Counted from the stretch's first letter, positions 30,001 to 33,000 are shown. The stretch is DNA of 45,163 bases from Candidatus Aenigmatarchaeota archaeon (GCA_043814985.1 JBDRJK010000015.1:1-45163), one strand, 5' to 3'. A program made the numbers.

Positions 30001-33000
30001 CCCAACAAGTACTACCTGAAGTTCTATTTCAAGATAGACAGTGTGGACAACAGCAAGGCACTAACCAAGTTCGTAGGCCATGACTGTACCAGGGATTATC
30101 TGGCAAGGATAGTCAGGAGAAGGAAGACAAGGATAGACACGAACGACATAATAGAACTAAAGGACAACAAGATAAGGGTCAAGTCAATAGCCATTTCTAA
30201 CAGAAGGGTCAGCCACCCAATAGAGATCAAGGTAAGAAGGATAGTAAGGGAAATGATAATACAGGAAGTCACGAAGCTTAAGACTGAGGAGTTCATCAGG
30301 GAGATAATAGACGGCAAGCTCCAGGCAAATATAAGGAAGAGCGTTAGCAAAGTCTATCCTCTGAGGTTCTTCGAGTTCAGGAAGACGGAAGTATTATAAT
30401 TTGTGAGTTCCATATATTTTTCTTATGAATAAAAGGGATTATGCGTTCTTAATATTGTTCTTAGTAATACTGGCAACCAGCTTTATCTTCATCTATCAGA
30501 ACAGAGATTCATTTGACTGCTCCATAGAATATTCCTACGGCGACATCATGGGGGACATAGAGTACGAGTTCGAGCCAGAGGGTTCTGCATACGGGAAAAC
30601 AAAGATTTTCAGGTTTATCATATCCTCCCACAGGAACAGGATCGAGTATTTCGGCATGGAAGTAACAGATGTGTATGGAAATGTTCTGTTCTTTGAGAAC
30701 CTGACCAACCCGGACGGAGGTTCAATATCAATTTCTCTAGAATCAGACGAGAACGAAACGCTCACTGTGAGAAGGTTCTTCAAGAAAACATGCTACCCTG
30801 AAATGCAATTATGATTCTTCAACCTGAATGATTGCTGTTGATATCCAGAACATACCGCCAAGAAGTATCAATACAAATGATATTATATAGGCCATTGCGA
30901 CCGAGGTTGTTGTTGCACCTAGAACAGTAGTCTCTACACTACCAGCTATTAGAGCACCTATGAAAATGCATATTGCCCCTATTATCCAGAACGCTATTGA
31001 CCTTGAGTCTGCCATGAATATGAGTTTTTCTTTTAGATATTTATATTTGATGGTATTCAGTTGAAAAATGCTTCAATTTCCATATCAATAATCTTAGAAA
31101 GTTCGTATCTTGTCTCAACTCTTTTCCTTTCACGCTGTCCCCATTTGGAATAATCAGTTTGACCATTGAAAAAACTAGCTATTTTTTCAGCTAACTCATG
31201 ATGATTACCAGGAGTAAATTTCTGGTCTTCCCAACCTTCTAACTGGTCCTTCAAGCCACCAACATCACTTACTATAACAGGAGTTTCACAGCTCATACCC
31301 TCAGTGCATGACATCCCAAAACTCTCAAAATAAGAGGGTACAATCAAAAGTTTAGCTCCTGAATAGATTGAAGACATTTTCTCATGTGGAACAAAACCCC
31401 TATATTTTATAGATTTTTCCAAACCCAATTCTTTTATCATACTTTCATATTGTTTGAATGGGTCCTCATTACCAAAAACATCAACCTCAAGTTGCATGCC
31501 TTTCTCTTTTGTAAGAATATTAAGAGCTTTTGATATTACATCAAAACCTTTAACAGGATTTTTACATCTTGCCGCAAATAGAATATCTGTATTCTTTTCT
31601 TTTGAATTTTTTTTGAATTTAGATGTATCAACCGGTTCAGGAATAATATGTATTTTAGAGTTATCGATTTTATACTCTGTTTCCAACCATTTAGCACTTG
31701 TTGTCGATGTTGTTTTTATATCATCACAGTTTTCTATTGTTGTCTTTTCTATTTTTATCAAATCATCAGTTCCATTGCTCCCATAAGGAAGTTTTATGCC
31801 ATATTTACCAGCAATCTCTAGCATGTATTTTTTTAAAGCTGAATCCCTGTAAACACGTCTAGTTCCTGGGAATTTTTTAAATAAATCTGAACCATGATAA
31901 GTATGAGATATCATGACATCCGGCTTCAATCTTTTAACAGTAGAAACTGATTTTTTACAAAGCTCCTTTATTCTCTCGAATCTGCCAGAATAATCCATAG
32001 GATTTTGCCCTGCAGCCAACGATTCAAGCCTGATCGGTATTGAATTAGGCAAACAACTACCAACTCCAGGAACATAAGGGCAGATAGCCCTGACATCCAA
32101 TCCCCTTTTCTCATATTCTTGCAAAGATTGCTTTATTGCTTCATGGCCTCCTCCATGAGGGACAGATTCCAATGTTACATATACACCGTCTATAGGCACC
32201 TTTATCACTACCTAGAATGGTACTATTATTGGTACCAATACATGTACTTATAATTGTACCTTAACTATTTAAAGAGTGGTGCCAAAATAAAATTGGTGAT
32301 AAAGTATGAAAGCCCCAAATATAATCAAAAATTTGGTTAAGGACAACTCTATAAAATCGATATTCAGGACTCTCTTCAAAGAAAGTCATGAAGGAAAGCT
32401 AGGGGTATCTATAACAATGCTGTCAGAGAAGACGGGAATAGAGAGACACAAGCTTGTTGGCATTCTAGAAGTTTTAGTTGTCTTAGGAATTCTAGTTGTC
32501 TTTGACATAGGTATGGCCAAAGCATTTGCCCCATCGCCAATGCTGTTAAAAGTGAAAAATCTCATCAGACTATAGAAGAGTTGTTCTGTTTTCTTTTTTA
32601 TTCAAGATTTAAATAGACTTGAAATCAAACTATTTTTGCAGGGGATAGATTGGGGAGCTACCGGTTCTCTGTTAGCGCAAATCCGGTTCATGGCGCGATC
32701 GAAGCCCGAGGGCGATGTTAAGAATCTATGAGGCCCTATCGGCTGACTGAGAAGCTTCGTCCTGTAGAGTTGCTGTTATAGCGAACCGTAGGAGGCGGGG
32801 AACCGAGCACTACTAAGTTATGGTAGTGACGTTTATAGGGTCGCGAAGTGGAGAAGGTTGACAGGATTAACTTCATAAATTCTTCTCACCCACCAAAGGC
32901 GTTCTCCTGCATCTTTTTGAGAAGTTTTTTATCCTTTAGGGAAGAGATATATTTATGGCCCGCTACAAGTACCAGAAAACCAATTACACTTCCTACATTG

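What a model noticed while it worked through the whole genome (the two positions that open the first line are those of the whole stretch)
32638..32910. Signal recognition particle without helix 6 and without SRP19 across Aenigmatarchaeota
The 273-nt SRP RNA keeps the Alu domain, helix 5 and the SRP54-binding helix 8 but has lost helix 6, and SRP19, the protein that binds helix 6, is missing although SRP54 and FtsY are present. RNA element and protein were lost together in the phylum (and SRP19 in other DPANN), giving an archaeal SRP with the architecture of the long Bacillus-type RNA.
Evidence so far: Rfam alignment: the 40 model positions of helix 6 are matched by 1 nt. SRP RNA in 41 of 41 phylum genomes, mostly 266-290 nt; in 13 of 30 loci where the regex placed helix 8, only 31-34 nt separate it from helix 5, leaving no room for helix 6. 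SRP19 (PF01922): 0 of 21 order genomes, 0 of 41 phylum genomes, 0 of 18 Nanohalo/Woese/Pace genomes but 3 of 4 Euryarchaeota; controls ring in 3 archaea. SRP54 g00786 and FtsY g00784 present.
(Added by a program. Inside this text positions count along the whole contig: contig position 1 is position 1 of the stretch shown here. "Call 12" and the like, gene names such as g00115 and contig names such as C1 are that model's own, and its searches are not shown. The text may have been shortened before it was handed on; [...] marks where a part breaks off. The agent that wrote the report below was given it as the finding of a first reader that could run no searches.)

Follow-up and report, generated by a model that had tools for sequence, protein, structure and literature searches.

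The report
DPANN SRP RNA lacking helix 6
This is the real gene for the RNA core of the protein-targeting particle (SRP) of a tiny archaeon, and like its DPANN relatives it lacks both the RNA arm and the protein (SRP19) that textbooks treat as standard parts of the archaeal and eukaryotic particle.

Summary
Confirmed, and wider than stated. The 273-nt SRP RNA keeps the Alu domain, helix 5 and helix 8, and helix 5 runs straight into helix 8. No helix 6 was found in any of 212 inspected RNAs from four DPANN phyla: 116 own phylum, 57 Nanobdellota, 25 from a Micrarchaeota-labelled phylum and 14 Undinarchaeota. One RNA has an intron-like insert at that place. All 30 Halobacteriota controls have helix 6. 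SRP19 was not found in 251 own-phylum or 78 other sampled genomes with a model that detects all four control archaea. A published supplementary table shows 0% SRP19 in all 12 DPANN groups, unremarked in its text. The long RNAs carry inserts elsewhere, many resembling tRNA-type introns. RNA scaffold and SRP54 are archaeal. Best reading: an SRP54-plus-RNA particle, from one loss on the DPANN stem rather than in Aenigmatarchaeota. A retained LUCA-like state is not excluded. This scan found the same feature before in at least eight other genomes; ten paper searches found no published description.

The parts
32608..32615 (+). TATA-box-like element about 23-30 nt upstream of the RNA 5' end (putative archaeal promoter)
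   Evidence: Read directly from the sequence; position typical of archaeal promoters (own knowledge); not tested. The sigma-70 scan found nothing and does not cover archaeal promoters.
32638..32910 (+). SRP RNA gene, 273 nt, without helix 6
   Evidence: RF01857 112.9 bits, model 1-317; the only match in the genome
32647..32701 (+). Alu domain (helices 2-4), with loop-loop pairing between the loops of helices 3 and 4
   Evidence: Rfam alignment. The loop-loop pairs (columns 23-50, 25-48, 26-47, 27-46) are among the 17 top covarying column pairs of 142 DPANN RNAs.
32703..32782 (+). Helix 5, 5' strand, with the 5e motif (32759-32762); runs into helix 8 at 32782/32783 with no helix-6 branch
   Evidence: Continuous covarying pairs 133-146 with 181-194; 19 of 20 pairs of this helix change on both sides in 31 RNAs.
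32783..32816 (+). Helix 8, the SRP54-binding site: asymmetric loop 32783-32787 / 32814-32816 (5 x 3 nt), 4-bp stem, symmetric loop 32792-32795 / 32806-32809, 3-bp stem, GGAA tetraloop 32799-32802
   Evidence: stems covary; loop register measured
32817..32910 (+). Helix 5 3' strand and helix 1 3' strand
32914..32918 (+). T5 run just after the 3' end (putative archaeal terminator)
   Evidence: Read directly from the sequence; function inferred

Best explanation
The DPANN signal recognition particle is an SRP54-plus-RNA particle. The RNA keeps the Alu domain and a long helix 5, but its S domain is one unbranched hairpin. Shown: no helix 6; covarying helix 5/8 continuity; an intact SRP54-binding helix 8; SRP54 with its M domain and FtsY present; SRP19 undetectable. 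Inferred mechanism: SRP19 normally clamps the tips of helices 6 and 8 and helps open helix 8 for SRP54. With no helix 6 there is nothing to clamp, so SRP54 binds helix 8 directly, as bacterial Ffh does. The helix-8 tip, freed from the helix-6 contact, can drift to the URRC loop known from bacteria. Inferred history: helix 6 and SRP19 were present in the last archaeal common ancestor and were lost once on the DPANN stem, which makes this a shared derived character of DPANN and a convergence on the long bacterial architecture.
For: Helix 6 is missing in 211 of 212 DPANN RNAs from four phyla; the 212th (G062) has a 43-nt insert there with no GNAR loop, which its congener G096 lacks. All 30 controls have it. 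SRP19 was not found in 251 + 78 genomes but was found in 7 of 7 Halobacteriota genomes tested and 4 of 4 named control archaea. Published table: 0% in all 12 DPANN groups; presence probability 1 in the archaeal ancestor, 0.3 in the DPANN ancestor and at most 0.08 below it. The same paper rejects a DPANN root under its best model. SRP19 is dispensable in Haloferax, and archaeal SRP54 binds RNA without it (PMC2905702). Scaffold is archaeal: 114 of 132 RNAs are closer to Halobacteriota than to bacteria, and none nests among the bacteria. SRP54 scores 398 bits against M. jannaschii SRP54 and at most 315 against any chain named as bacterial SRP protein/Ffh. All 29 DPANN SRP54 sampled share a P-loop F/Y where both bacteria and 2 of 3 Halobacteriota have Q, so this particle did change on the DPANN stem. 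URRC loops occur in 24 of 198 DPANN RNAs and 0 of 29 controls.
Against: Altiarchaeota, Iainarchaeota and several small DPANN phyla were not sampled for the RNA, and the Micrarchaeota-labelled phylum had only 26 genomes, so it may be a smaller relative. The archaeal control is one phylum only. The identity margin is small (0.492 to Halobacteriota against 0.463 to bacteria), and 18 of 132 RNAs are closer to bacteria. At 12 of 39 diagnostic columns outside helix 6, DPANN follow the bacteria (my count). The asymmetric loop is mostly of the 5 x 3 type dominant in the bacteria sampled, not the 5 x 2 type of 29 of 29 Halobacteriota, and simple deletion of helix 6 does not predict that. The published ancestral probabilities were computed under a Euryarchaeota root, so they are not independent of the root. 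In Thermoproteus, SRP54 binds the S domain only weakly without SRP19 (PMC4731332). No binding, expression or function was tested for this genome.
Confidence: 0.72

Rival explanations
1. Primitive absence. DPANN keep the LUCA-type long SRP RNA (Alu domain, helix 5, helix 8, no helix 6, no SRP19), shared with bacteria. Helix 6 and SRP19 arose later, in the ancestor of the other archaea and eukaryotes.
For: The architecture matches long bacterial RNAs exactly at helix 6. The 5 x 3 asymmetric loop with UAA occurs in 182 of 198 DPANN RNAs and 35 of 52 bacterial ones, and in no Halobacteriota. URRC loops occur as in bacteria. DPANN RNAs are closer to bacteria (0.463) than Halobacteriota are (0.434). 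Four of four high-scoring DPANN RNAs pass the bacterial long-SRP cut-off. One gain explains the pattern if the root lies on DPANN.
Against: It needs a DPANN root, which the best-fitting model of PMC13473441 rejects. Loop size is labile: 6 of 25 RNAs of the Micrarchaeota-labelled phylum and 14 of 52 bacterial RNAs fit 5 x 2 best. DPANN SRP54 carries derived changes that bacteria lack. SRP19 is dispensable, so loss is cheap.
Confidence: 0.13
2. Several independent losses of helix 6 and SRP19 in different DPANN phyla during genome reduction.
For: SRP19 is dispensable. The published table also gives 0% for Hadarchaeota, outside DPANN, so SRP19 may have been lost more than once.
Against: The junction is nearly the same length (19-21 nt) and the RNA nearly the same size (263-278 nt) in all four phyla. 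No intermediate was seen. SRP19 is 0% even in Altiarchaeota, described as not genome-reduced.
Confidence: 0.07
3. Replacement by transfer: the DPANN ancestor took up a bacterial long SRP RNA, or its S domain, which made SRP19 useless.
For: Bacterial-type loop features, and scores of 52-110 bits on the bacterial long-SRP model.
Against: The same RNAs score higher on the archaeal model (113-181 bits), while long bacterial RNAs reach only 63-97 bits on it. The bacteria form their own clade on a long branch (0.68, support 1.0) with no DPANN inside. 27 of 39 diagnostic columns, including the 5e/5f region next to helix 8, follow Halobacteriota (my count). Only Bacillota and two Melainabacteria-type RNAs were compared.
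Confidence: 0.04
4. SRP19 is still there but diverged beyond detection, or another protein has taken its place on helix 8.
For: DPANN proteins evolve fast (own knowledge). My hold-out test used relatives found from a Methanothrix query, so it does not measure DPANN-level divergence.
Against: Its binding arm is gone. Three profiles find nothing. 31 of the 43 weak hits were re-scored at 13.7 bits or less, against 108-131 for 7 true SRP19. One member of the recurrent weak-hit class (model positions about 9-51, ORFs near 430 aa) was identified as EF-1alpha; two others look like 23S rRNA read as protein (my reading).
Confidence: 0.04

Closest known systems
Canonical archaeal SRP (7S) RNA, Rfam RF01857, with SRP19 and SRP54 (for example M. 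jannaschii, A. fulgidus; PMC2905702)
   Same: Helix 1, Alu domain, long helix 5 with the 5e motif, helix 8 with symmetric loop and mostly GGAA tip; best-scoring Rfam model; archaeal SRP54
   Different: No helix 6 or GNAR loop, no three-way junction, about 40 nt shorter; no SRP19; asymmetric loop mostly 5 x 3 rather than 5 x 2; URRC tips in 24 of 198
Bacterial large SRP RNA (Bacillus scRNA type), Rfam RF01854
   Same: Alu domain plus helix 5 plus unbranched helix 8, no helix 6, about 265-275 nt, UAA short strand
   Different: The window RNA scores 52.5 bits, below the cut-off of 60, against 112.9 on the archaeal model. Archaeal sequence scaffold and separate clade. The partner is archaeal SRP54, not Ffh.
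Haloferax volcanii SRP19 deletion mutant (Yurist et al. 2007, as described in PMC2905702)
   Same: An archaeal SRP that works without SRP19
   Different: A laboratory mutant whose RNA still has helix 6; here both parts are missing naturally across a superphylum
Permuted, BHB-processed SRP RNA of Thermoproteus (PMC4731332)
   Same: A non-canonical archaeal SRP RNA; the paper predicts ancestors with simple BHB introns, which the long DPANN RNAs resemble
   Different: Thermoproteus keeps helix 6 and SRP19; the window RNA is neither permuted nor interrupted

Membership tests
SRP RNA (clan CL00003) | Helix 8 with the symmetric-loop SRP54-binding motif and an apical tetraloop | tested here: met
   32792-32809; stems covary. 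The first loop base is G rather than C, as in 18 of 63 resolved own-phylum RNAs.
Archaeal SRP RNA (RF01857) | Score above the gathering cut-off over the whole model | tested here: met
   112.9 against 96.5 bits; 103 of 121 phylum genomes are over the cut-off
Archaeal SRP RNA (RF01857) | Alu domain with loop-loop pairing, and helix 1 joining the two ends | tested here: met
Archaeal SRP RNA (RF01857) | Helix 6 with a GNAR tetraloop | tested here: not met
   1 nt for 40 model positions; 0 of 212 DPANN RNAs against 30 of 30 controls
Canonical archaeal SRP particle | SRP19 encoded in the genome | tested here: not met
   the genome is 91.2% complete, so the phylum-wide count carries the weight
Canonical archaeal SRP particle | Archaeal-type SRP54 with NG and M domains, and FtsY | tested here: met
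Bacterial large SRP RNA (RF01854) | Alu domain present and helix 6 absent | tested here: met
Bacterial large SRP RNA (RF01854) | Score above the cut-off and better than on the archaeal model | tested here: not met
   52.5 bits, cut-off 60; four other DPANN RNAs pass the cut-off (86-110 bits) but score 154-181 on the archaeal model
Bacterial large SRP RNA (RF01854) | Descent from the bacterial RNA (nesting in the bacterial clade) | tested here: not met
   limited power: 254 columns, and only Bacillota plus two other bacterial RNAs
Functional SRP | The RNA is transcribed, binds SRP54 and targets ribosomes | not testable with these tools
   Not tested for this genome. A nanohaloarchaeal SRP RNA that lacks helix 6 by my reading is highly transcribed (RPKM 173,757; PMC10266531 supplement).

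The most novel reading that the evidence does not exclude
DPANN never had helix 6 or SRP19: they keep the LUCA-type SRP shared with bacteria, and the helix 6/SRP19 module is an innovation of the other archaea and eukaryotes. That would be a structural character, free of long-branch artefacts, in favour of an archaeal root on DPANN.
Probability: 0.13. Interest if true: 0.92.

Novelty: new variant of a known kind. Interest (0 to 1): 0.68.

Why it matters
The 2010 review of archaeal SRP says SRP19 genes are found in all archaeal subgroups and that SRP19 coexists with helix 6 (PMC2905702); a large part of archaeal diversity does not fit that. A precise 40-nt difference plus a gene absence shared by both DPANN clusters is a rare, alignment-free character for the disputed monophyly of DPANN, and it can be checked lineage by lineage. 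It offers a natural two-component archaeal SRP for testing what helix 6 and SRP19 are for, and it sharpens the question whether LUCA's SRP RNA was the long form without helix 6. In practice these RNAs score lower on the archaeal model, some pass the bacterial model's cut-off, and 13 of 116 in the phylum fall under the Rfam cut-off, so annotation can miss or mislabel them.

Tried and rejected
Assembly artefact: rejected, the same junction recurs in 211 of 212 RNAs.
Long RNAs hide a helix 6: rejected. Of 27 inserts of 12 nt or more in 24 of 34 long RNAs, only one lies at the helix-6 position.
A non-DPANN archaeon without helix 6: the 273-nt Halobacteriota match (G371) is cut by its contig end, has helix 6, and its genome has SRP19. 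The record labelled Methanosarcinales with a short RNA (L082, G123) falls in the Nanobdellota phylum. The Methanothrix pattern hits have helix 6.
RNA length alone as a test: rejected after G371; sequences were inspected instead.
hmmalign insert count as a test: unreliable, it placed a 30-nt or longer insert at helix 6 in only 16 of 30 controls. My first spacer script mis-anchored 28 DPANN RNAs through tie-breaking. The revised one classed 198 of 212 as short and 30 of 30 controls as long, and I read the other 14 by eye.
'Bacterial-type loop proves bacterial origin' (my idea): weakened, because loop size varies within both groups.
RF00169 found no match in the genome.
First SRP19 homologue search returned only close Methanothrix relatives.
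Two phylum searches meant to reach new phyla returned Nanobdellota again.
Expression or splicing of the G062 inserts: no RNA holder was listed; no reads were laid.
The Dombrowski 2020 supplements held as text had no SRP19 row.
No structure or complex prediction was run.

Full report
Observation. The Rfam archaeal SRP model matches window 32638-32910 (+) over its full length at 112.9 bits (cut-off 96.5), and the 40 positions of helix 6 are matched by one nucleotide. Helix 1, the Alu domain, helix 5 with the 5e motif (32759-32762) and helix 8 (32783-32816) are present. A TATA-like element (32608-32615) and a T5 run (32914-32918) flank the gene (read; function inferred). The single-sequence fold gives the same unbranched S domain but is only modestly better than shuffles (z -1.85). 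It is the only SRP RNA match in the genome. SRP54 (440 aa, with N, GTPase and M domains) and FtsY lie on contig C19.

The structure is supported by covariation. In 142 distinct DPANN RNAs of 263-278 nt, the top covarying column pairs trace helix 8, helix 5 and the Alu loop-loop pairing, and the pairs from column 133 to 146 with 181 to 194 form one unbroken helix across the place of helix 6. On 31 S-domain sequences chosen by convenience (plus-strand loci from the four phyla), 31 of 34 pairs change on both sides, 91% of cells pair, no shuffle of 500 reaches this, and sliding the partners drops pairing to 34-48%. That structure was derived from the same alignment, so the slide control is flattered.

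Own phylum. 116 of 121 genomes have a match; named records of this phylum read Aenigmatarchaeota. I fetched and inspected all 116. The final script classed 105 as short (18-23 nt from 5e motif to asymmetric loop). Of the other 11, read by eye, 10 have no hairpin between helix 5f and helix 8 and one (G062) has a 43-nt insert there. That insert has no GNAR loop, is absent from the congener G096, and its removal by the bulge-helix-bulge rule gives a junction one base away from that of G096.

Other DPANN. From these I sampled three more phyla. The phylum of a Woesearchaeota record (Nanobdellota): 58 of 61 genomes match; 57 full-length RNAs inspected, one split match not. The phylum of an Undinarchaeota record: 14 of 17 match. 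The phylum of a record labelled Micrarchaeota: 25 of 26 match; so small a phylum may be a relative of Micrarchaeota rather than Micrarchaeota proper, and I could not name it. None of these 96 RNAs has helix 6 (93 classed by script, 3 by eye). The SRP RNA of the cultivated Nanohalococcus, printed in the supplement of PMC10266531, has by my reading the same short junction and a UGAC tip, and is highly transcribed (RPKM 173,757); the passages I saw do not mention helix 6. Controls: 40 of 40 Halobacteriota genomes match, 39 at 310-317 nt; 30 of 30 inspected have a 58-62 nt spacer holding helix 6. The fortieth is cut by its contig end and has helix 6. Altiarchaeota, Iainarchaeota and other small phyla could not be reached.

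SRP19. PF01922 finds nothing over cut-off in 121 phylum genomes (best E 0.06) but misses the Sulfolobus control. NF001973 detects all four control archaea. Its best hit is E 0.007 in 251 phylum genomes and E 0.003 in 78 other genomes (26 Micrarchaeota-labelled, 17 Undinarchaeota, 32 Nanobdellota, 3 unplaced), against E 1e-23 or better in 7 of 7 Halobacteriota genomes. A profile from 141 diverse SRP19 gives best E 0.34 over all 13,142 six-frame segments of this genome, while every held-out member scores E 2.3e-9 or better; these members came from a Methanothrix query, so the test does not measure DPANN-level divergence. I re-scored 31 of the 43 weak hits: at most 13.7 bits, against 108-131 for true SRP19. 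One member of the recurrent weak-hit class was identified as EF-1alpha. Independently, Supplementary Data 25 of PMC13473441 lists SRP19 (arCOG01217) at 0% in all 12 DPANN groups, Altiarchaeota, Iainarchaeota and Nanohaloarchaeota included, at 91-100% in seven of eight other groups and 0% in Hadarchaeota, while SRP54 is at 86-100% in the DPANN groups. The main text never mentions SRP.

The long RNAs. Of the RNAs held at that point, 34 DPANN-type RNAs were 279 nt or longer; 24 have 27 inserts of at least 12 nt, in the Alu domain, in helix 5 and above all in or next to helix 8. Twelve of the 27 fit a bulge-helix-bulge geometry better than at least 95% of shuffles of the insert; the other 15 do not pass, G062's helix-6-position insert among them (p 0.10). 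For G017, G113, G020, G104, G031, G213 and G186, removal by the rule restores a canonical helix 8 or flank. I read these as probable tRNA-type introns.

How it works. In canonical archaeal SRP, helices 6 and 8 pack side by side through their tetraloop adenosines; archaeal RNA binds SRP54 even without SRP19, and deleting SRP19 in Haloferax leaves translocation unaffected (PMC2905702). In Thermoproteus, by contrast, SRP54 binds weakly until SRP19 is added (PMC4731332). With no helix 6, the simplest model is direct binding of the SRP54 M domain to helix 8, as for bacterial Ffh; the M-domain RNA-binding motifs are conserved in the DPANN SRP54 sampled. Two features fit release from the helix-6 contact. 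The tip is URRC in 24 of 198 DPANN RNAs and GGAA in 29 of 29 controls, and URRC is a known bacterial alternative (PMC4091067). The asymmetric loop fits 5 x 3 best in 49 of 60, 47 of 54, 10 of 12 and 14 of 25 RNAs of the four phyla and in 28 of 52 bacterial ones, but 5 x 2 in 29 of 29 Halobacteriota; those bacteria were picked by my pattern and are rich in Lachnospiraceae. The conserved Alu fold suggests that ribosome contact is kept (inference). Binding and targeting were not tested.

Where it came from. The scaffold is archaeal. DPANN RNAs score far higher on the archaeal than on the bacterial long model (window 112.9 against 52.5; four best 154-181 against 86-110), and seven long bacterial RNAs reach only 63-97 bits on the archaeal model. 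Over 254 shared columns, 114 of 132 DPANN RNAs are closer to 30 Halobacteriota than to 32 bacterial RNAs (mean identity 0.492 against 0.463), and the bacteria form a separate long-branch clade. SRP54 is archaeal. All 29 DPANN SRP54 sampled have F or Y in the P-loop where two bacteria, M. jannaschii and two of three Halobacteriota have Q and the third has H, a shared derived change. PMC13473441 places the root at or near Euryarchaeota with DPANN sister to TACK plus Asgard; under that root it gives SRP19 probability 1 in the archaeal ancestor and 0.3 in the DPANN ancestor. One loss on the DPANN stem is therefore my best reading (0.72). Primitive absence (0.13), repeated loss (0.07), transfer from bacteria (0.04) and a hidden SRP19 (0.04) are the rivals.

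What is in print. Ten full-text searches found no paper describing an archaeal SRP RNA without helix 6, or naming the DPANN-wide absence of SRP19. What I saw of each paper: PMC2905702, passages and section 6 whole; PMC4731332, PMC6098224, PMC7987157 and PMC4091067, passages; PMC13473441, abstract, passages, section 10 and supplement rows; PMC10266531, passages and supplement rows; PMC7414124, a supplement search only (3 small files held, no hit; its large tables were not seen). For PMC7203096 I saw passages of the first 300,000 of 769,434 characters; its three mentions of SRP19 and one of helix 6 lie in the part not held and may bear on novelty. Subscription journals were not searched. This scan has noted the same feature in at least eight other genomes; those notes are not independent support.

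Verdict. A real feature of an ordinary housekeeping gene in a variant form: new variant of a known kind, DPANN-wide rather than phylum-specific. The protein half is visible in a published table; the RNA half I did not find in print. Interest 0.68.

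Noticed in passing
L010:1501-1847 (G062), L035 (G017), L037 (G104), L044 (G086), L046 (G031), L053 (G113), L064 (G020), L284 (G213), L285 (G186) and others: Inserts of 16-120 nt in DPANN SRP RNA genes at several independent sites (Alu domain, helix-8 tip, symmetric loop, 3' flank). 12 of 27 fit a bulge-helix-bulge geometry better than 95% of shuffles, and removal often restores the canonical helix 8: probable tRNA-type introns. Splicing not shown.
   Followed up: partly
L357:1210-2532 and L388-L416: All 29 DPANN SRP54 sampled have F or Y at the P-loop position that is Q in the bacteria and most other archaea checked, and D, S or N instead of H or L after the DxxGR motif. 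From memory, this Q takes part in the SRP54-FtsY composite active site, so GTPase activation may differ.
   Followed up: partly
PMC13473441 Supplementary Data 25, row arCOG01217_01: Hadarchaeota, outside DPANN, also show 0% SRP19. Their SRP RNA could not be reached; it is a natural test of co-loss.
   Followed up: no
L036, L046, L067, L070, L201, L204, L290 and others: URRC-type helix-8 tips (UGAC, UGGC) in 24 of 198 DPANN RNAs, scattered over three phyla and absent from 29 controls.
   Followed up: partly
L082 (G123); also L162, L186: Records labelled Methanosarcinales carry DPANN-type RNAs. G123 falls in the Nanobdellota phylum, so its label is wrong; the L186 RNA reads the same as that of the Nanobdellota genome G207 in the stretch printed; L162 was not checked.
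   Followed up: partly
window 26289-26386: A tRNA gene with an enlarged anticodon arm (33 nt for 9 model positions), probably an intron, found by Rfam but not by ARAGORN.
   Followed up: no
window 38663-38753: ARAGORN calls a tRNA of unclear anticodon here that Rfam does not list.
   Followed up: no
L146, L164 (L353, L354): Two Melainabacteria-type records carry long SRP RNAs with an Alu domain.
   Followed up: no
L040 (G039): A 32-nt insert on the 5' strand of helix 5 with an eroded 5e motif and no clear bulge-helix-bulge fit; unexplained.
   Followed up: partly
window 32955-33710: The gene just downstream encodes a 251-aa protein with a hydrophobic N-terminal stretch and a Lon protease C-terminal domain; no link to SRP was tested.
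   Followed up: no
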